From assembly GCA_964615415.1 (NCBI GenBank), contig CAZTNI010000002.1, forward strand, positions 4,873-68,872: DNA of 64,000 nt, given 5' to 3'. Each line of letters starts with the position of its first letter. The first letter of the stretch is position 1. Positions 29,079 to 36,342 of this stretch are shown here, piece by piece. Made by a program: the position numbers and the translations under genes. Under the pieces are notes generated by a model, which was not told where the DNA came from, searched no databases, and was given only the letters and a program-made list of their open reading frames with translations. Source of the stretch: an uncultured Candidatus Saccharibacteria bacterium (GTDB lineage: Bacteria; Patescibacteriota; Minisyncoccia; Phycocordibacterales; SBAW01).

Positions 29079-31544
29079 ATGGCAGAAGAGGAGAAGAAAC
29101 CAGGGAATAATGGCAATGGCATTGTAGGCCGCAATATTTCGCAGGAAATGCGCGAAGCGTACTTGGACTACGCTATGTCCGTTATCACCTCGCGCGCACT
29201 CCCGGACGTGCGCGACGGCCTAAAGCCAGTGCACCGCCGCATTCTCTACGCGATGCATCGCATGGGTCTTACCGCAGGCAGCCGCTTCCGCAAGTCGGCA
29301 ACAGTGGTGGGCGATGTGCTTGGTAAGTACCACCCGCACGGCGACGCGTCGGTGTATGACGCGATGGTAAAAATGGCGCAGGACTTTTCTATGCGCTACC
29401 CGCTTATTTTGGGTCAGGGTAACTTCGGTTCTATCGACGGCGACTCTGCTGCAGCTATGCGCTACACCGAGGCAAAGATGTCTCGGCTTGCAGACCAACT
29501 CCTGGGCGACTTGGACAAAGACACGGTTGAGTGGCGTCCGAACTACGACGGGACTCTTAGAGAGCCTGCGGTACTTCCGGCCGCAGTGCCAAACATTTTG
29601 TTAAACGGTACGCTCGGTATCGCCGTGGGTATGGCGACGTCTATCCCGCCGCACAACCTCAAAGAGCTTTCTAACGCGCTCCAGCATTTGATAGATAATC
29701 CTTCCGCAACGGTAGAGGACTTGATGGAATTTGTGTCTGGTCCGGACTTTCCAACCGGCGCCGTTGCGTTTAATAAAAAAGATCTGCTCCATGCATACTC
29801 GACCGGCCGCGGCGGCGTTGTGGTGCGCGGCAACGCAGAAATTGTTGAAGACAAAAAGGGTAACTTCCAGATTGTTATCACCAGTCTTCCATACCGCGTA
29901 AACAAGGCAGACATGCAAGAGCATATTGCCGACTTAGTGCGCGACAAAAAACTGGAGGGCATCCGCGCAATGCGGGACGAGTCGACCCGCGACATTCGCG
30001 TTGTGCTCGACTTAAAGCAGGGTGCGCACCCGCAAAAAGTTTTGAACTATCTCTACAAGCACACGCAGCTTGAGGACACCTTCCACTTCAACATGGTGGT
30101 GTTGGTTGATGGCGTGCCGCAGACGATGTCGCTCAAGGGCATCCTTGAGGAGTTTATTAAACACCGTCGCGAGGTAGTAAAACGCCGTACGCAGTTTGAC
30201 CTTACGAAGGCACAGGACCGCGAGCATATTCTCCTTGGTCTTAAAAAAGCGCTCGACCACATCGACGAGATCATCAAGACGATCCGTGCATCGAAGGATG
30301 TTGCTGACGCTCATAAGAACTTGATGAGTAAATTTAAATTCTCTGCACTGCAGGCAACGGCTATTTTGGAAATGCGCTTGCAGAAGCTTGCAAACCTTGA
30401 GCGCAAGAAGATCGAAGACGAACTCGCAGAGGTACAGGCCCTTATTGCAGAACTGACAGACCTTTTGAAGAGCGACAAGAAGATGCTCGGCGTCGTCCGC
30501 AAGGAAATCGGCGAAGTGTCCGAGAAATACGGCGACGACCGCTTAACGAAAGTTATGAAGGGTGGCGCAGGCATCATTAATATTGAAGACTTGGTGCCAG
30601 ACGAGGAGCAGGTACTTGTTATGACGCAAGGCGGTTACGTAAAGCGTACTAACCCAGAAGAATTTAAGCGCCAGAAGCGCGGCGGTGTGGGCGTTATCGA
30701 CCTCGACACAAAAGAAGAGGACTTTGTAACGACCTTCCTGACGACCTCGACGCACAGCGACGTGCTCTTCTTCAGCGACCAGGGTAAGGCGTATCAAATT
30801 AAATTCTATGAACTTCCGGAAGGGAAGCGCTCAACTAAGGGCAAGGCGTTGGTGAACTTCCTCTCGCTGACTGACACAGAAAAAGTGTCTTCGATCCTTC
30901 CGATGCGTAAAAATCAGAAAGAGGGCGAGAAGTTCCTCTATATGATCACCAAACAAGGTGTCGCAAAGAAGGTAGATGCAACTGCGTTCCACGACGTGCG
31001 TCGCAGCGGCCTTATTGCTATTAAACTCCAAAAGGGTGACGAACTTATTGCAGCACTCTTGGTAGAAAAGGGTGATGAAATTCTCCTTGCTTCAGCAAAG
31101 GGTCAGTCGATTCGCTTTAAGGAAAGTGATATTCGCTCGATGGGTCGCGCAGCAGGTGGCGTGCGCGGTATGAAGTTGGGTAGTGGCGACACCATCGTAA
31201 GTGCCGACGTTGTTAAGAAGGGTCAGAAAAACCTAGAGATCTTGGTAGTGTCGCGCAACGGCTTTGGCAAAACAACACCAGAAAAAGAATACAAGGTACA
31301 AAAGCGCGGCGGCAGCGGCATCAAGACCGTTAAAGTAACTCCAAAGACCGGCCCACTCATTGCATCGAAAGTAATTTCGAAAGAAGAGGGTGTAGGCGAA
31401 GACGAGATTGTAGTTATCTCCCAGAAAGGCCAAGTGATCCGCACTGGTCTTGCAGAAATCCCATCACTCTCAAGAGGCACTCAAGGAGTAAGAATAATGA
31501 AACTCCGCGATGGTGACGCAATCGCCAGCTTTGTTTGTATCTAA
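29079..31544 (+). CDS. gyrA: DNA gyrase subunit A
   Basis: [28 protein letters not shown] with the active-site Tyr region; GyrA-box-like QKRGGVG; 821 aa. Confidence 0.95.
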
Positions 31545-31556
31545 GTGTACTATTCT

Positions 31557-32795
31557 ATGCCTTCCAGTAAAGAAAAGGGTGATCTGCTGGAAGAGATAAT
31601 TGAAGAACTGTGCGTAGGAATTAAAAATGTAAAAGTATCACGAAATTTAAAAATAATTGGTAAAAAAACTAAAGAAGAAAGAGAAATCGACGTTTATATC
31701 GAAGGAAAACAAGGAGTATTTGATATAAAAATTGCAATTGAATCTAAAAATTATGGAGAACCAGTGGGTGTTGAAAAAGTTGAGAGTTTCAAAGCAAAGT
31801 TAGAAGATATTGCTGCTGATTTAGGTGTAATGGTGTGTCCAACTGGATTTACAGAGCCAGCAAAAAAACGAGCAGAGTTTGACGGAATTCAATTATTTGA
31901 GGTGTATGATGAACGGCTGGGTAACAGCAAATGGTTTATTCCTATTCGTTTCATTGAACCTGAATTAACAAAACATCGCTTTACTTTTAAAGGGAGGGGA
32001 GGTGGTCCTTTCTCAATATCTATAGATTCACAAAAATGGAGATTTCATATAGAAGGGAAAATACTCACAACTGAAGAGTTCACCACCTATCTGTGGAATA
32101 AAGGAAAGATTCCTCAAAAAGCAGGTGAACATAAAATTGATCACGGCGCAGTCGTTATTAGTGAAGAAGGGAATCCAGATAAGGTGCAATATTGTGAAAT
32201 AGAAGTAGATGTTGTAGTTGAAGAGCGATATTTTTTAAAATTAATTCCAGCCTCTTTTCTTAAAAAAACTTCTGAAAATAAACAAAATTTCCAAATCAAA
32301 TTAGATCTCTATTCTAAGGAAAAAGACATGTTAAATAATGGTTGGAGAAAATTTCTCACTTTAGAAGAAATGAACCAAGCGGCAGATATTGAAAATCAAC
32401 CAGAAGGAATTAGGGGTTTAATATTGCATCCGAAGTATACGTATGAGTATGCTAAAAAGCACGAATTGCGTTTGCATCCGCGACCTTTCGAAAAGATTCG
32501 CAGCGGCAAGCAAATAATCGAGTCGCGGCTCAATGATGAAAAGCGTCAACAGATTAAAGTCGGGGACCATCTTGTGTTTGCTTTGCGGCCAGATTTTGTA
32601 GAAAAAGAAGAGGTGGAAGTGGTGGAGCTAATCCATGCGCCCACATTCCGCGACCTATTTCTTTCGCGTCCACTTACGGAATTTGGTATAGAAGATGGAA
32701 ACATTGAGCGAGTAGAAAATATGTACGAATACTACTCCAAAGAAGATGAAGCAAAATACGGAGTAGTTGGTATAAAATTTAAAAAACATGGCTAA
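31557..32795 (+). CDS. Mrr-like PD-(D/E)XK nuclease fused to a C-terminal ASCH (PUA-like) domain; candidate modification-dependent restriction endonuclease
   Basis: N-terminus: EIDVYIEGK ... IKIAIESKNYG (D...ExK restriction-endonuclease core). C-terminus: FEKIRSGKQIIESR...IKVGDHLVF...VEVVELIHAPTF...YGVVGIKFK matches the ASCH fold (compare E. coli YqfB). The N-terminal two thirds are about 32% GC; the ASCH part is about 47% GC. Confidence 0.65.
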   Translation: MPSSKEKGDLLEEIIEELCVGIKNVKVSRNLKIIGKKTKEEREIDVYIEGKQGVFDIKIAIESKNYGEPVGVEKVESFKAKLEDIAADLGVMVCPTGFTEPAKKRAEFDGIQLFEVYDERLGNSKWFIPIRFIEPELTKHRFTFKGRGGGPFSISIDSQKWRFHIEGKILTTEEFTTYLWNKGKIPQKAGEHKIDHGAVVISEEGNPDKVQYCEIEVDVVVEERYFLKLIPASFLKKTSENKQNFQIKLDLYSKEKDMLNNGWRKFLTLEEMNQAADIENQPEGIRGLILHPKYTYEYAKKHELRLHPRPFEKIRSGKQIIESRLNDEKRQQIKVGDHLVFALRPDFVEKEEVEVVELIHAPTFRDLFLSRPLTEFGIEDGNIERVENMYEYYSKEDEAKYGVVGIKFKKHG

Positions 32796-33264
32796 ACCTC
32801 CACAACAGTCGCCGGATTTTCCTGATGCTTTTTATCGTGTGACGGTAAAGGGGATCTGTGTGCGTGATGGAAAAGTGCTTTTTGTGCGCGATGTCACGAA
32901 TAAACATCGTGTAAATGGTTCTTTAGAGCTTCCTGGTGGCGGGCTCGATTTTGGCGAAGATATAGAAAAAGGTTTTGTGCGCGAGGTGCAAGAGGAAATG
33001 GGTTTGAAAGTAAAATGGATGTCCAAAAAACCTTTGTATCTCTGGACGTCGAAACAGGGGTCGAGGCGGGGAATGGAATGGTACTGGGTGCTTGTGCTCG
33101 CATATACGTTTGATGTAGAAGATTTTAACTTCACTCCTACTGACGAATGCAGAGAGTTAGTTTTTCTCTCTAAGGAAGAAATGAAAGAACGTCGCGACGA
33201 CATGGCAACCCAGATTCAATTTTTGGTTGAATATTTTGATCCAAAGGATTTTGAAAATAAGTAG
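32788..33264 (+). CDS. NUDIX hydrolase
   Basis: Nudix box GGGLDFGEDIEKGFVREVQEEMGL (GX5EX7REUXEEXGU); the ATG overlaps the upstream stop by 8 nt. Confidence 0.85.
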   Translation: MAKPPQQSPDFPDAFYRVTVKGICVRDGKVLFVRDVTNKHRVNGSLELPGGGLDFGEDIEKGFVREVQEEMGLKVKWMSKKPLYLWTSKQGSRRGMEWYWVLVLAYTFDVEDFNFTPTDECRELVFLSKEEMKERRDDMATQIQFLVEYFDPKDFENK

Positions 33265-33343
33265 AGCAGATGGTTGACTAACTGAGGTTTTTGTACTATT
33301 ATAGTTTCGGAACTTCCTTACACACAACAGGAAAGGGAATCAC

Positions 33344-33841
33344 ATGGGTTTCTTTAGCTTCTTTTTTGGCGGGAACAAGAAGCCTGCGCGCCAGCAGTGG
33401 CCGCAGGACCGCTTTGTCCCGCCTCCGCCTCCTCCTGCGTCTGCTCATACTCATCGGCGGAAGCCGAGGTATGTCATCGGTCCGAATCGGAAGGTGTTCT
33501 ACCCGCAGCCGAATGGGACCTATCAGGCCGATGACGGCGCGGTCATCAACTCTGTCATCCTCCAGGGCTTGCTCGCGGATGGTGAGGTGGGCGGGTACCG
33601 TGCGGTTGAGACGTTGCCGGCTGACCTGGTGCGTCATCCGCAGCCGCCCAGCATGGGACACGGCGTGCCGGTCTTCGACGCTCATGCGCATCATCGCCAT
33701 GACCACGGACTGCATCATCGTCATGAACCGGCTCACACGCCTTCCGGCTTCGATTCAAGCCCGTCCCTGGGTGGTGGCTCTGACACAGGCGGTGGCTCTT
33801 CTGGCGGGGGCGACTCCGGTGGCGGAGGTGGGAGCTTCTAG
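33344..33841 (+). CDS. Pro/His/Gly-rich low-complexity protein (GC-rich islet)
   Basis: Shine-Dalgarno GGAAAGGGA; PPPPPP, HAHHRHDHGLHHRHEP and GGGSSGGGDSGGGGGS tracts; own terminator. Confidence 0.5.
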   Translation: MGFFSFFFGGNKKPARQQWPQDRFVPPPPPPASAHTHRRKPRYVIGPNRKVFYPQPNGTYQADDGAVINSVILQGLLADGEVGGYRAVETLPADLVRHPQPPSMGHGVPVFDAHAHHRHDHGLHHRHEPAHTPSGFDSSPSLGGGSDTGGGSSGGGDSGGGGGSF

Positions 33842-33865
33842 CACTCTTGTTCTTCTATAATATGC

Positions 33866-33900
33866 AGCCGCGGCACAAAGTGCCGCGGTTTTTCTTTTTG
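33866..33900 (+). terminator. rho-independent terminator
   Basis: CCGCGGCAC-aaa-GTGCCGCGG followed by TTTTTCTTTTT. Confidence 0.7.
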
Positions 33901-33939
33901 TGGTATAACTCCGGTTAGAATTGAACCCGGGAGACAACG

Positions 33940-34362
33940 ATGCAGACAATTGAAGACAAACCAAAGGTAATAGAAAAGGTTGCGTGGACATACATACGCG
34001 ACGGCAAAGTGCTCATGGCTCGCTCACGTGAACAAACACTTTTTTATTGCCCTGGCGGCAAGATAGAGAGTGGCGAGACGCACGTGCAAGCGCTTGTCCG
34101 AGAAATCGACGAAGAGCTTGGTGTCAGTATTGTCCCTGACACGATAGAGGCGTTTTGTTTGGTTGAAGGTCCGGCGCATGGCCGTCAGGACACGCTGCTC
34201 CGCATGCACTGCTACACGGCAGACTATGTAGGAATGCTTACTCCTTCGGGAGAAGTCGAAGAATATGATTTTCTTGGTACTTCCAAAGAGGATCTGGCGC
34301 GAACAACCGAGTCTGGCCGCCTCTACCTTGCGCAAGTGCAGGTGCGCGGGCTTATTGCCTAA
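33940..34362 (+). CDS. NUDIX hydrolase (MutT-like)
   Basis: Nudix box GGKIESGETHVQALVREIDEELGV. Confidence 0.8.
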   Translation: MQTIEDKPKVIEKVAWTYIRDGKVLMARSREQTLFYCPGGKIESGETHVQALVREIDEELGVSIVPDTIEAFCLVEGPAHGRQDTLLRMHCYTADYVGMLTPSGEVEEYDFLGTSKEDLARTTESGRLYLAQVQVRGLIA

Positions 34363-34416
34363 GCGCCTGCATTTGCTACGATGCGCAGTATCTAGCTTTC
34401 AACAAGGGAGAGTAAG

Positions 34417-34713
34417 ATGACGCTTAAGCAGCGTCGGCGCATCAAGCGCCGGAATGGAATTCATGTGCCTACCCGCGCTTCGAAGCGCGGGTGGAAGGCG
34501 CGGGGCTTTATGGCCCTTGCTTTGGCACCGACGCCGCCGCGCGCTCCGGAGCCGGTCGCGGTACGCACTGTGGCGTCCAAGCCTCGTGTGTTGCCGGGGT
34601 CGACCCCTACGAAGCCGAGGGTCGCGCAGTTGCCGGAGTCGCTCATGAAGCCGGTCAGGCGCCCTCGGCGCAAGCAGCCGCATCCCGACGAGGAGCTTGC
34701 AGCAGCCGAATAG
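34417..34713 (+). CDS. small basic Pro/Arg-rich protein (GC-rich islet)
   Basis: Shine-Dalgarno GGGAGAGTAAG; KQRRRIKRRNG; own strong terminator. Confidence 0.5.
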   Translation: MTLKQRRRIKRRNGIHVPTRASKRGWKARGFMALALAPTPPRAPEPVAVRTVASKPRVLPGSTPTKPRVAQLPESLMKPVRRPRRKQPHPDEELAAAE

Positions 34714-34735
34714 CCTGCACTGTTCTTTTAATATC

Positions 34736-34766
34736 GCCGCACCCTCACGAGGGTGCGGCTTTTCTT
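34736..34766 (+). terminator. rho-independent terminator
   Basis: GCCGCACCCTC-acga-GGGTGCGGC followed by TTTTCTT. Confidence 0.7.
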
Positions 34767-34821
34767 AATCGTATCTTTAGCGGCACTGTAAGAAAATAAG
34801 ATCTCACACATCATATAGGGT

Positions 34822-34974
34822 ATGAGAGCGCGATATTATTACTATAGAGACACTGCTGGGGTAACCCTTCTAACACTTGCGGTAGTCACCGCATACTCGC
34901 TCTGGGGTGCCCATGTGCTTAAAGCAGAGAGTTCTGTGGGAGCGGTCTCACAGGCTGTCGCTGTAGAAAGTTAA
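34822..34974 (+). CDS. possible 50-aa hydrophobic peptide
   Basis: Hand-translated: MRARYYYYRDTAGVTLLTLAVVTAYSLWGAHVLKAESSVGAVSQAVAVES. Weak RBS; could be a leader peptide for the 34994 gene. Confidence 0.2.
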   Translation: MRARYYYYRDTAGVTLLTLAVVTAYSLWGAHVLKAESSVGAVSQAVAVES

Positions 34975-34993
34975 TAGTACTATTCACCTATAT

Positions 34994-35743
34994 ATGATGA
35001 ATAAGCAATTTATTGCAGGGTTCGTGCTCGCAGCCTTGGTGCTGGTCGGAGCAGTTACCTTTGCTTCGTGGAATGGGGGCGGCACGCCTGTGGATTCCGG
35101 CAACACGTCGAGCGGCTTGTCGCAGGCAGACAAAACTCGTTTTATTGATACTGTGCGCGCAAAGGTTGTGGCGGAAATCGGTCAGCCGATCGAAGGCTAC
35201 GAGCCGTTTATGTTTATGCGTGTGTATCCGGGGTTAATCGCGCAGGATTTCAACAACATAGATGCGCTCATTGGCCGCTATGTGGTAGCTAATGGTCAGG
35301 TAACCTACGACCTTAATGGCGAACAGGAACTGCATTCTGCAGCTCGTGCGATTTCCGACGAAGGCATGGAGCAGTTGTTTCTGAACATTCTTGCCCGCAT
35401 AAGTTTGATGGCCGGCAGCGACCAGGTTGATGGCGTCTTGAATGCAATTAGCGCAGCTCCAGGTCCGGATCCGACTGTCGGCACAGGAACTGAGACGACG
35501 CTTACGGGCAAGATCACTTGCCTCCCGCACAAGGGTGACGGTCCGCACACTATGGAATGCGCATTCGGTCTGGTGACCGCCGAGGGTAACCACTATGCGC
35601 TGCAAAATCTGTGGGATGTTGCACCGACTATTACCGACACCGAAGTGCGCGTACGTGTTACCGGCGTAGTTTCTACACCGGCAGCGAACGAAAAATACGA
35701 CATTGTTGGTGTTGTAAAAGTAACAAAAGTAGAAAAACTCTAA
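34994..35743 (+). CDS. membrane-anchored/secreted hypothetical protein
   Basis: N-terminal signal anchor (FIAGFVLAALVLVGAVTFA); followed by a terminator. Confidence 0.6.
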   Translation: MMNKQFIAGFVLAALVLVGAVTFASWNGGGTPVDSGNTSSGLSQADKTRFIDTVRAKVVAEIGQPIEGYEPFMFMRVYPGLIAQDFNNIDALIGRYVVANGQVTYDLNGEQELHSAARAISDEGMEQLFLNILARISLMAGSDQVDGVLNAISAAPGPDPTVGTGTETTLTGKITCLPHKGDGPHTMECAFGLVTAEGNHYALQNLWDVAPTITDTEVRVRVTGVVSTPAANEKYDIVGVVKVTKVEKL

Positions 35744-35755
35744 ACAATGTTTCCA

Positions 35756-35782
35756 AAACTGCCCCACTCGGGGCAGTTTTTC
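35756..35782 (+). terminator. rho-independent terminator
   Basis: AAAACTGCCCC-actc-GGGGCAGTTTTT. Confidence 0.7.
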
Positions 35783-35798
35783 GGTATATACTTGGGGA

Positions 35799-36342
35799 GA
35801 TGAACGACAGTTCGTTTTTAAATCCTCTCCAAGCAGTTGCCGCGGCGCATGTGCACGAAGGCATGCATGTTGCGGACTTTGGTAGCGGGTCCGGCTTTTT
35901 TGCTCGCGCAGCTGCGCGGGAAGTGGGCGAGCACGGGGTCGTATGGGCGATAGACATTAACCGCGATCTTCTGCCACGACTGAAAACCATCGCGCATGCT
36001 GAAGGCTTGCGTAATGTCGAAGTGCTCCACGGTAATGTGTCAGAGGAAAAGGGGAGCAACTTGCCGCCCGACTCTGTCGACCTGGTTATAGCAGCGAACG
36101 TGTTATTTACGCTTGAAGACAAAGAAGGCTGCGTTAAGGAAATAAAACGCGTACTTAAAAAGGGTGGCCGCGCTTTGGTTATAGACTGGTCGGACTCTTG
36201 GGGCGGCTTGGGTCCGCACAAAGACCATGTGCTTACGGAGGCAGATGCGCGCGAGCTGTTTGAAAAACATGGGTTTCTTACGAGCGACCCCATTCCTGCG
36301 GGTGCCTACCACTGGGGATTTATCGGTAGGAAAAAGTCGTAA
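35799..36342 (+). CDS. class I SAM-dependent methyltransferase
   Basis: Motif I VADFGSGSGFFA; motif post-I WAIDIN; Shine-Dalgarno GGGGAG. Confidence 0.8.

What the first reader, a model, noticed from the sequence alone, without database searches (positions are those of the whole stretch)
31557..32795. Sharp compositional break inside the nuclease-ASCH gene suggests a recent in-frame domain graft
From the gyrA stop to about position 32455, the sequence is about 30-33% GC. It contains runs such as aaaataattggtaaaaaaactaaagaagaaagagaaatcgacgtttatatcgaagg. This stretch covers the nuclease and middle regions.

The ASCH-encoding 3' third of the same ORF is about 47% GC, and the downstream NUDIX gene is about 45% GC. 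Both are close to the genome background of roughly 50%.

This pattern suggests that an AT-rich foreign nuclease module was fused in-frame upstream of a resident ASCH-NUDIX pair. That would be a snapshot of defence-gene assembly by domain accretion.
Basis: seen in the sequence. Interest (0 to 1): 0.6.

Follow-up and report, generated by a model that had tools for sequence, protein, structure and literature searches.

The report
Foreign nuclease gene fused to ASCH
In one uncultured Adlerbacteria-like (CPR) genome, a complete AT-rich restriction-nuclease gene from a low-GC donor has landed just after gyrA and lost its stop codon, so it now reads straight into the host's own small ASCH gene; this is a clear, apparently unique example of a gene fusion soon after it formed, but its function is untested.

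Summary
ORF 31557-32795 (412 aa) is the lowest-GC3 gene of about 59 in the window. GC changes at nt 31530 and 32459 (0.495 | 0.333 | 0.425). The second break falls inside the 12-nt gap (32448-32459) between two unrelated sets of homologues.

Residues 1-301 are a full-length member of a roughly 300-aa Mrr-type nuclease family that stands alone everywhere else. The closest members lie on low-GC contigs. Residues 305-416 are the orthologue of a standalone 107-116 aa ASCH gene found downstream of gyrA in 12 related genomes.

None of 89 related loci carries the nuclease. No protein among 1.84 billion cluster representatives spans both halves.

The nuclease half's GC3 (0.226) is far below what its own protein sequence would give with host codon usage (0.493). 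ASCH is within the host range.

- The graft is a whole two-domain gene, not a nuclease module.
- ASCH is resident, but NUDIX1 follows it in only 1 of 12 relatives.
- ASCH is 43% GC, not 47%.
- The slot is a recurrent insertion hotspot.
- Whether the fusion is adaptive is unknown.
- A single-base sequencing error at the junction cannot be excluded.

The parts
29079..31544 (+). gyrA, the left anchor of the variable region. It is conserved up to its stop codon in all relatives.
   Evidence: DNA alignment A2 shows that similarity ends exactly at the stop codon.
31545..31556 (+). 12-nt spacer (GTGTACTATTCT) between the gyrA stop and the nuclease ATG. The left insertion boundary lies here. No promoter-like site is present.
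   Evidence: The GC change-point is at 31530.
31557..32795 (+). The chimeric ORF (412 aa from the ATG). It has the lowest GC3 of about 59 genes in the window.
31557..32447 (+). Horizontally acquired Mrr-family nuclease gene: full-length N-terminus, 33.7% GC, GC3 0.226. It comprises a PD-(D/E)XK core and a beta-rich second domain.
   Evidence: It is 40-60% identical over its full length to standalone proteins of about 300 aa. All 15 invariant and 33 nearly invariant family positions are kept. It is absent from 89 related loci. GC3 z = -9.5 against the host expectation.
31668..31901 (+). Mrr_cat (PD-(D/E)XK) catalytic core. The motif residues are D in 'EIDVYI' and E-S-K in 'IESKNY'.
31914..32447 (+). 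Beta-rich second domain of the nuclease family, with no Pfam annotation. It is presumed to be the nucleic-acid-binding or specificity domain.
32448..32459 (+). Fusion junction (TAT GCT AAA AAG = Y-A-K-K). Nuclease-family homology ends before it and ASCH homology begins after it. GCT occupies the position of the ancestral ASCH ATG.
   Evidence: Alignments A1 and A3. In one search, nuclease hits end at query residues 296-304 and ASCH hits start at 299-305. The all-position GC change-point is at 32459.
32460..32795 (+). Resident ASCH module, the orthologue of the standalone 107-116 aa ASCH genes of related Adlerbacteria. It is 43% GC with GC3 0.41.
   Evidence: It is 67-81% identical to standalone genes downstream of gyrA in 12 relatives. 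It differs at only 1 of 46 invariant columns. PDB relatives by sequence are 2z0t, 1xne and 1s04.
32466..32468 (+). TTG (Leu) where all 12 orthologues and the outgroups have ATG (the Met of 'HEM'). That Met is the start codon in some ASCH homologues.
   Evidence: P0061 and P0078 start at this Met.
32505..32528 (+). ASCH octapeptide motif G-K-Q-I-I-E-S-R. Gln occupies the position of the catalytic Lys in GxKxxExR.
   Evidence: Gap-free alignment A4. The same Gln is present in all 12 orthologues and in P0133, P0134 and P0139. The motif's role is taken from bioRxiv 10.64898/2026.02.27.708502.
32788..33264 (+). NUDIX1. Its start overlaps the end of the fusion ORF by 8 nt, so translational coupling is likely. 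It is a generic Nudix hydrolase.
   Evidence: Pfam NUDIX, E = 2.8e-12. It is below every NCBIfam cut-off. An orthologue lies next to ASCH only in L095.
31545..35784 (+). Variable region between gyrA and the conserved methyltransferase gene (35785-36342). It is a mosaic of segments with different composition.
   Evidence: Synteny across 80 loci. Segmentation. Terminator-like hairpins at 33866-33890 and 34736-34759.

Best explanation
This is a recent gene fusion created by horizontal transfer followed by loss of a gene boundary.

Shown:
- In Adlerbacteria-like CPR genomes the stretch downstream of gyrA is variable. It usually contains a standalone ASCH gene of about 110 aa.
- The slot between the gyrA stop and the ASCH start repeatedly takes up unrelated, lower-GC cargo genes.
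- In this genome the cargo is a complete solitary Mrr-type nuclease gene: a PD-(D/E)XK core plus a beta-rich second domain. Its codon usage matches its closest homologues, which lie on low-GC contigs, and not this host.
- The nuclease's last few codons and stop codon, and the ASCH start codon, are gone. One 412-aa ORF now joins a near-complete nuclease to a near-complete ASCH through about 3 linker residues.

Inferred:
- The junction arose by a small deletion or indel.
- With only 12 nt after gyrA and no promoter- or terminator-like site, the chimera is transcribed by read-through from gyrA. It is probably translationally coupled to NUDIX1 through the 8-nt overlap.
- Both halves probably still fold and work as before, because all family-conserved residues are intact. 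The nuclease would act as a solitary enzyme of the Type IV (modification-dependent) kind that needs no partner methylase. ASCH would act as a PUA-like nucleic-acid or modified-base binding module. In this lineage ASCH is probably a binder and not an ac4C deacetylase, because Gln replaces the catalytic Lys.
- Whether tethering ASCH retargets the nuclease is unknown. I put an adaptive, function-changing fusion at about 25-30% and a tolerated neutral passenger at about 50%. The rest is split between a sequencing artefact and a transient deleterious state.
For: - Two non-overlapping homologue sets abut at the junction.
- Standalone nuclease homologues end 2-15 residues after the last conserved motif, for example P0019 '...GYTYNI*'. 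Standalone ASCH orthologues begin 'M.THEMRLHP', which aligns codon for codon with the window's 'AKKHELRLHP'.
- gyrA - ASCH synteny is seen in 12 relatives. ASCH identity is 67-81% where gyrA identity is 80-85%.
- The nuclease is absent from 89 related loci.
- Composition change-points at 31530 and 32459 bracket the insert.
- GC3 of the nuclease part is z = -9.5 against host codon usage; ASCH is z = -1.8.
- Composition in the family follows the host: 0.31-0.36 GC in 33%-GC hosts and 0.43-0.49 in 57-62%-GC hosts. The closest homologues have GC 0.32-0.34 and GC3 0.21-0.26 on low-GC contigs.
- Other cargo occupies the same slot in relatives.
- Conserved residues are intact in both halves.
- No promoter- or terminator-like site lies between gyrA and 33274.
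- The nuclease fold is confirmed.
- The nuclease family is solitary and lies in defence or mobile neighbourhoods.
- The same ASCH subfamily is fused elsewhere to DUF559, NYN, HD-CE and NACHT.
Against: - The fusion is a singleton: one protein cluster, seen on 2 contigs (NCBI and Logan). There is no evidence of selection for the architecture and no independent population support.
- No donor was identified. The best homologue is only 57-60% identical.
- No mobility gene, tRNA or flanking repeat marks the insert, so the insertion mechanism is unknown.
- One extra base at 32448-32452 would restore a nuclease stop (TAA, 32453-32455) and leave ASCH with a possible TTG start at 32466. A one-base error, or a very recent one-base mutation, could therefore account for the fusion itself.
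- Expression and activity are entirely inferred.
Confidence: 0.75

Rival explanations
1. The fusion is an artefact. The nuclease gene really was inserted, but a one-base sequencing or assembly error at the junction merges two separate genes: the nuclease ending at TAA 32453-32455, and ASCH starting at TTG 32466.
For: - An extra base at 32448-32452 would give the nuclease a C-terminus of family-typical length and a stop at 32453 (frames).
- TTG 32466 aligns with the Met that starts some ASCH homologues.
- In relatives, the stop of the cargo gene abuts or overlaps the ASCH start.
- The source is a metagenome-assembled genome, and the fusion is a singleton.
Against: - The identical 412-aa product is on record from two sources, NCBI and Logan, on 2 contigs.
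- The junction is not a long homopolymer; it contains a run of 5 A only.
- Both ATG codons that could start ASCH in relatives are replaced, by GCT and TTG. That fits a gene that no longer initiates on its own.
- There is no Shine-Dalgarno-like sequence before TTG 32466 (sequence).
Confidence: 0.12
2. The fusion is ancient and its AT-richness is functionally constrained, either by amino-acid content or by selection on the nuclease's mRNA. No recent transfer occurred.
For: The nuclease protein is somewhat rich in Lys, Ile, Glu and Asn. With host codons it would still be only 43.9% GC.
Against: - No relative carries the nuclease or the fusion.
- GC3 is 0.226 against an expected 0.493.
- Homologues range from GC3 0.19 to 0.57 according to their host, so composition is not constrained.
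Confidence: 0.02
3. The whole block (nuclease-ASCH plus NUDIX1) arrived together as one foreign cassette, and the GC step is heterogeneity within the donor.
For: - ASCH and NUDIX1 are both below the host mean (GC3 0.41).
- NUDIX-ASCH fusions exist in other organisms.
Against: - ASCH is orthologous and syntenic in 12 relatives, with divergence parallel to gyrA.
- Those orthologues also have a somewhat lower GC than their own gyrA.
- L095 has ASCH and NUDIX1 without the nuclease.
- NUDIX1 is not specifically related to the NUDIX domains fused to ASCH elsewhere.
Confidence: 0.03
4. The fusion is real and adaptive. ASCH serves as a modified-base reader that directs or gates the Mrr-type nuclease, creating a new modification-dependent restriction enzyme.
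For: - Fusions of a PUA-superfamily reader to a nuclease are an established design for modification-dependent restriction enzymes (PMC6765204, PMC7897488, PMC7641849).
- This ASCH subfamily is independently fused to DUF559 (a Vsr-like nuclease), NYN, HD-CE and NACHT.
- Gln at the catalytic Lys position suggests a binder and not an enzyme.
- Both halves are intact.
Against: - It is a singleton with no recurrence.
- The nuclease family already has its own second domain and works alone elsewhere.
- The linker is only about 3 residues.
- The un-ameliorated composition means there has been little time for selection to act.
Confidence: 0.27

Closest known systems
Solitary Mrr-like (Type IV-like) PD-(D/E)XK restriction endonucleases, Pfam Mrr_cat PF04471; specifically an unnamed standalone family of about 300 aa (P0002-P0054, P0121-P0129)
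   Same: The N-terminal 301 residues are a full-length member at 40-60% identity. All invariant residues, including the D...(D/E)xK motif, are present. The fold matches AF1548, NucS, LlaBIII, AspBHI and MspJI nuclease domains.
   Different: Every other member stands alone at about 300 aa. This one has lost its stop codon and carries a C-terminal ASCH domain. The family's second domain has no solved structural relative.
Modification-dependent restriction endonucleases built from a PUA-superfamily reader plus a nuclease: MspJI and AspBHI (SRA-like + PD-(D/E)XK), VcaM4I and TspA15I (EVE + HNH) (Lutz et al. 2019, PMC6765204; PMC7897488)
   Same: The domain logic is the same: a PUA-superfamily beta-barrel (here ASCH) on one polypeptide with a restriction-type nuclease.
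   Different:
- Modification dependence has not been tested.
ASCH-domain proteins (PF04266): YqfB and TthASCH ac4C amidohydrolases / tRNA ac4C deacetylases (bioRxiv 10.64898/2026.02.27.708502), and Pyrococcus PH0355 (PDB 2z0t)
   Same: The C-terminal 112 residues match ASCH (Pfam; PDB 2z0t, E = 9e-8). They keep G, E and R of the GxKxxExR octapeptide.
   Different: The essential catalytic Lys is Gln in this whole Adlerbacteria clade. Here the domain is fused to a nuclease instead of standing alone.
Stop-codon-loss or boundary-deletion fusions of adjacent restriction-modification genes, for example the experimentally fused Eco29kI R and M genes (PMC3039593)
   Same: Two adjacent genes become one functional-looking ORF through loss of the intergenic boundary.
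   Different: Here one partner is a fresh horizontal acquisition and the other is a resident non-RM gene. The event is natural and has not been tested.

Membership tests
Mrr_cat / PD-(D/E)XK restriction endonuclease (PF04471) | Pfam profile match above the gathering score | tested here: met
   34.3 bits against a cut-off of 21, aa 42-119.
Mrr_cat / PD-(D/E)XK restriction endonuclease (PF04471) | Catalytic D...(D/E)-x-K motif present | tested here: met
   D45 and K64 are invariant, and E62 is E or D across 39 family members. The window has EIDV...IESKNY.
Mrr_cat / PD-(D/E)XK restriction endonuclease (PF04471) | Restriction-endonuclease-like alpha/beta fold | tested here: met
   [not shown]
Mrr_cat / PD-(D/E)XK restriction endonuclease (PF04471) | Endonuclease activity, and dependence on DNA modification | not testable with these tools
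   Requires biochemistry.
Standalone two-domain Mrr-type family of about 300 aa (P0002-P0054) | Full-length collinear homology covering the core and the beta-rich second domain | tested here: met
   Query residues 3-304 align with residues 8-309 of P0011 and similarly with others. Identity is 40-60%.
Standalone two-domain Mrr-type family of about 300 aa (P0002-P0054) | Encoded as a standalone gene of about 300 aa with its own stop codon | tested here: not met
   The window copy reads on into ASCH (412 aa). All other members are 297-340 aa. The exceptions are P0009 and P0047, whose extensions carry no recognisable domain.
ASCH domain (PF04266) | Pfam profile match above the gathering score | tested here: met
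   24.3 bits against a cut-off of 21.2, aa 309-414. PDB 2z0t, E = 9.3e-8.
ASCH domain (PF04266) | GxKxxExR octapeptide with catalytic Lys and Glu, as required for ac4C deacetylase activity | tested here: not met
   The window has G-K-Q-I-I-E-S-R. Gln is at the Lys position, as in all 12 orthologues. G, E and R are kept.
ASCH domain (PF04266) | PUA-like beta-barrel fold | not tested
   Only the nuclease module was modelled. The fold is inferred from sequence similarity to solved ASCH structures.
PUA-reader + nuclease modification-dependent restriction endonucleases | PUA-superfamily domain and restriction-type nuclease on one polypeptide | tested here: met
   Mrr_cat and ASCH are in one uninterrupted ORF.
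PUA-reader + nuclease modification-dependent restriction endonucleases | Architecture recurs and is conserved across genomes | tested here: not met
   No protein other than the query itself spans both halves, among 5.8 billion clusters or the top 150 hits from 1.84 billion representatives.
   Requires biochemistry.
Horizontally acquired gene or genomic islet | Atypical composition and codon usage relative to the host | tested here: met
   It has the lowest GC3 of 59 genes (z = -3.1). It is z = -9.5 against the host-codon expectation.
Horizontally acquired gene or genomic islet | Absent from orthologous positions in related genomes | tested here: met
   Found in 0 of 80 genome loci and 0 of 9 metagenome loci.
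Horizontally acquired gene or genomic islet | Mobility signatures: integrase or transposase, tRNA target, flanking repeats | tested here: not met
   No flanking direct repeat above chance; 960 of 2000 shuffles reach the observed score. No mobility gene fits in the 900-nt insert.

The most novel reading that the evidence does not exclude
The chimera is a working, newly formed restriction enzyme. In this reading, a catalytically inactive ASCH domain (Lys replaced by Gln) reads a modified base, such as an N4-acylated cytosine, in DNA or RNA. It thereby gates or targets an Mrr-type nuclease. That would make it the first ASCH-directed nuclease. It would have been caught at the moment of assembly from a foreign effector and a resident reader, at an insertion hotspot behind gyrA in a CPR bacterium.
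Probability: 0.15. Interest if true: 0.65.

Novelty: new variant of a known kind. Interest (0 to 1): 0.42.

Why it matters
Multi-domain defence proteins are widely thought to arise by shuffling sensor and effector domains. The intermediate steps are rarely seen, because later sequence change erases the evidence. Here the evidence is still legible:
- the two parents are identifiable, a standalone nuclease family and standalone ASCH orthologues;
- the junction is located to within 12 nt;
- the foreign half keeps its donor-like codon usage;
- relatives show the state before the fusion.

The case can therefore be tested directly. One can express the fusion, the two parental halves and a version with the stop codon restored, and ask whether tethering changes specificity.

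The work also shows that the position just after gyrA is a recurrent cargo slot in Adlerbacteria. It flags an ASCH clade that lacks the catalytic lysine, and a nuclease-associated domain with no solved structural relative.

If the fusion turns out to be neutral or an artefact, what remains is an ordinary horizontal transfer into a variable region.

Tried and rejected
- **Flanking direct repeat or target-site duplication.** The boundaries look alike by eye (AAGTGTAC..TATGCC against AAGTATACGTATGAGTATGCT), but the local alignment score of 12 is reached by 960 of 2000 shuffles. The repeat finder found no repeat flanking the insert. Rejected.
- **Vestigial out-of-frame ASCH start.** An ATG at 32449-32451 (frame +1) followed by CTA would give 'ML...', as in some ASCH homologues, if the A-run changed length. 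This is possible but cannot be told apart from chance. It is not used as evidence.
- **Source contig.** The look-up of encoding contigs for P0001 returned nothing on record. The listing of cluster members gave no accession or name. The two contigs therefore cannot be shown to be independent.
- **Solved structure for the nuclease family by sequence.** None found.
- **Carriage on phages or plasmids.** There was no phage hit. Plasmid hits cover only the Mrr core at 30-36% identity, so no vector was identified.
- **PADLOC.** Only weak matches below significance (PDC-S02, mREase_IV) for the fusion. NUDIX1 and NUDIX2 match the candidate family PDC-S07 through the generic Nudix box. Not used.
- **NUDIX1 related to the NUDIX domains of NUDIX-ASCH fusions.** Only Nudix-box-level similarity was found. 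Rejected.
- **Assembly chimera joining two organisms.** Rejected. Both flanks, gyrA and ASCH, belong to the same lineage and are adjacent in relatives. A chimera would need two precise joints, one of them in frame.
Full report
**1. The observation**

The window has an uninterrupted ORF from 31545 (GTG) or 31557 (ATG) to 32795, directly after the gyrA stop at 31544. Pfam finds Mrr_cat at aa 42-119 and ASCH at aa 309-414. The next ORF, 32788-33264, is a NUDIX protein that overlaps the fusion ORF by 8 nt.

The window averages 50.1% GC. The lowest-GC 900-bp stretch of all 64 kb begins at 31551 (33.4%). Binary segmentation of 30500-34400 gives GC 0.495 up to 31530, 0.333 to 32459, 0.425 to 33368, 0.654 to 33836, and then 0.508. 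Within the ORF, the GC3 change-point is at 32424 (support interval 32280-32457; 6 of 2000 permutations reach it). The all-position change-point is at 32459.

GC3 is 0.226 for the nuclease part and 0.411 for the ASCH part (Fisher p = 3e-4). Among about 59 crude gene calls in the window (GC3 mean 0.513, sd 0.092), this ORF is the lowest. The nuclease part is at z = -3.1. ASCH and NUDIX1 are both at z = -1.1, which is inside the native range.

Amino-acid content does not explain the break. Back-translating the nuclease protein with the host's codon usage predicts 43.9% GC and GC3 0.493. The observed values are 33.7% and 0.226 (z about -10). ASCH deviates by z = -1.8.

**2. What the two halves are**

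A search of 5.8 billion protein clusters returned only the query itself as a full-length hit. About 54 proteins of roughly 300 aa cover the first 70% of the query at 38-60% identity. A separate set covers only the last 26%.

An exhaustive HMMER scan of 1.84 billion cluster representatives gave the same split. Nuclease-type hits end at query residues 296-304, and ASCH-type hits begin at 299-305. None of the top 150 hits spans both halves.

In the alignment of 39 nuclease-family members, the window copy has a full-length N-terminus. It keeps all 15 invariant and 33 nearly invariant positions, including the D...(D/E)xK catalytic residues. Family members end 2-15 variable residues after the last conserved motif, so the window copy has lost little more than its stop codon.

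**3. Comparative genomics**

The GyrA C-terminal domain places the window among Candidatus Adlerbacteria-like Paceibacterota. About 29 genomes share 71-88% identity.

Across 80 orthologous loci the backbone is MBL-fold gene, small ORF, gyrA, a variable gap, and a methyltransferase. In distant relatives the methyltransferase follows gyrA directly. In Adlerbacteria the gap holds 0.6-6.5 kb of varying genes.

The nuclease is in none of the 80 loci. ASCH is in three (L008, L010, L015) as a standalone gene of 107-113 aa. In L008 its ATG directly abuts the gyrA stop.

A metagenome scan added nine more loci (L088-L096). In every one, ASCH is standalone, begins 'M.THEMRLHP', lies 0.2-1.3 kb after gyrA, and has no nuclease next to it.

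ASCH identity to the window is 67-81%, where gyrA identity is 80-85%. The window's ASCH is no more diverged than the others. Of 46 columns invariant in the 12 standalone orthologues, it differs at one only. ASCH is therefore a resident, vertically inherited gene of this clade.

NUDIX1 is different. It follows ASCH only in L095 (54% identity) and is absent from the other loci.

The slot between gyrA and ASCH holds unrelated cargo in the relatives: membrane proteins, a DUF4145 protein, a pyrophosphatase-like gene and a HAD-like gene. All of these have a lower GC than their host locus. The slot is a recurrent insertion point.

**4. The junctions**

On the left, gyrA is conserved up to its stop codon in all relatives, and similarity ends there. 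The nuclease ATG follows after 12 nt.

On the right, the window's GCT AAA AAG CAC GAA TTG CGT aligns codon for codon with L008's ATG AAT ACA CAC GAA ATG CGG. Nuclease-family homology runs through E301 (nt 32447), and ASCH homology is secure from H306 (nt 32460). The joint therefore lies within 32448-32459, which is where the GC step is.

Both ATG codons that could start ASCH in relatives are replaced, the first by GCT and the 'HEM' Met by TTG. The Met-to-Leu change is the window's only private substitution at an otherwise invariant ASCH position.

No direct repeat flanks the insert.

**5. Origin of the nuclease**

Family members are solitary genes with no constant partner. They often sit among defence or mobile genes: SLFN/AlbA_2, UvrD, GmrSD, a resolvase, toxin-antitoxin pairs and a Y1 transposase.

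Their composition follows their host. They have 31-36% GC in 33%-GC genomes. In 57-62%-GC genomes they have 43-49% GC, below their flanks. AT-richness is therefore not a constraint of the protein.

The closest homologues (57-60% identity) lie on low-GC contigs with GC3 0.21-0.26, which matches the window copy. This points to a recent arrival from a low-GC donor with little amelioration since. No donor species or vector was identified. There are no phage hits, and plasmid hits cover only the catalytic core.

**6. How it probably works**

Shown: there is one ORF; both halves keep their conserved residues; and no promoter- or terminator-like site lies between gyrA and 33274.

Inferred: the chimera is transcribed by read-through from gyrA and is translationally coupled to NUDIX1. 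The nuclease half acts as a solitary, Type IV-like enzyme. The ASCH half acts as a PUA-like binding module.

ASCH proteins have recently been reported as tRNA ac4C deacetylases that need the Lys and Glu of a GxKxxExR octapeptide (bioRxiv 10.64898/2026.02.27.708502). The whole Adlerbacteria clade, including the window, has Gln at the Lys position. This suggests a binding role and not a catalytic one.

Fusions of a PUA-superfamily reader to a nuclease are a known design for modification-dependent restriction enzymes (PMC6765204, PMC7897488, PMC7641849). This ASCH subfamily is independently fused to DUF559, NYN, HD-CE, NACHT, Tpt1, RlmD, NUDIX and GNAT domains. A functional sensor-effector chimera is therefore plausible. 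It is unproven, because the fusion is a singleton.

**7. Rivals**

- Ancient constrained composition, and arrival of the whole block as one cassette, are both contradicted by the synteny and composition data.
- An assembly chimera is implausible, because both flanks are adjacent in relatives.
- A one-base error or very recent mutation at 32448-32452 remains possible. It would restore a nuclease stop at 32453 and leave ASCH to start at TTG 32466. I give this about 12%. The identical product is recorded from NCBI and Logan, and both ASCH ATG codons are gone.

**8. Verdict**

The compositional break is real. It marks the seam between a freshly acquired, complete Mrr-type nuclease gene and a resident ASCH gene. 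The fusion is unique in the databases searched.

It is a new variant of a known kind: a PUA-like reader joined to a restriction nuclease. As a snapshot of domain accretion it is clean and testable, but no new principle is demonstrated and function is untested. Interest is moderate.

Noticed in passing
window 31545-35784; loci L001-L080: The interval between gyrA and a conserved methyltransferase gene is a variable hotspot in Adlerbacteria, holding 0.6-6.5 kb of differing cargo. In more distant Paceibacterota the methyltransferase follows gyrA within about 50-200 nt. In the window the interval is a mosaic of GC 0.33, 0.43, 0.65 and 0.51.
   Followed up: partly
window 32505-32528; L008, L010, L015, L088-L096; P0133, P0134, P0139: All Adlerbacteria-type ASCH proteins have Gln where the ASCH octapeptide GxKxxExR has its catalytic Lys. 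Outgroup ASCH domains keep Lys. This clade may bind without deacetylating.
   Followed up: partly
[not shown]
   Followed up: partly
window 33344-33841: A 165-aa ORF with 63-65% GC, rich in Pro, Gly and His, with no Pfam or PADLOC match. It is a compositional outlier in the opposite direction. A strong terminator-like hairpin follows at 33866-33890, and a promoter-like site precedes it at 33274-33302.
   Followed up: no
window 32466-32468: The Met of the conserved 'HEM' motif is Leu (TTG) only in the window. It is ATG in all 12 orthologues and in the outgroups, and it is the start codon of some ASCH homologues. TTG could still allow internal initiation of a separate ASCH protein.
   Followed up: partly
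proteins P0055-P0062, P0065, P0116, P0204, P0255: This ASCH subfamily is fused to many partners: NUDIX, GNAT, RlmD methyltransferase, Tpt1/KptA, NYN, DUF559, MsrA, a KTI12-like kinase, HD-CE, NACHT and PNPOx. P0055 and P0056 carry an unannotated C-terminal domain with a 'DGLHR' motif.
   Followed up: partly
protein P0009 (391 aa): Another member of the nuclease family has an extension of about 90 aa of low-complexity, Arg/Pro-rich sequence after the normal C-terminus. It looks like read-through into GC-rich flanking DNA. Stop-codon loss may recur in this family.
   Followed up: no
L015 10914-11606; L095 4345-4995: In relatives the cargo in the gyrA|ASCH slot includes a DUF4145 protein (L015) and a 216-aa membrane protein (L095). 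In L089, L091 and L095 the cargo gene's stop overlaps the ASCH ATG by 4 nt, so genes are very tightly packed at this site.
   Followed up: partly
window 33940-34362: A second NUDIX gene (NUDIX2, 52% GC) lies in the same variable region. Unlike NUDIX1 it has relatives in the same region of at least 10 related loci (29-52% identity).
   Followed up: no
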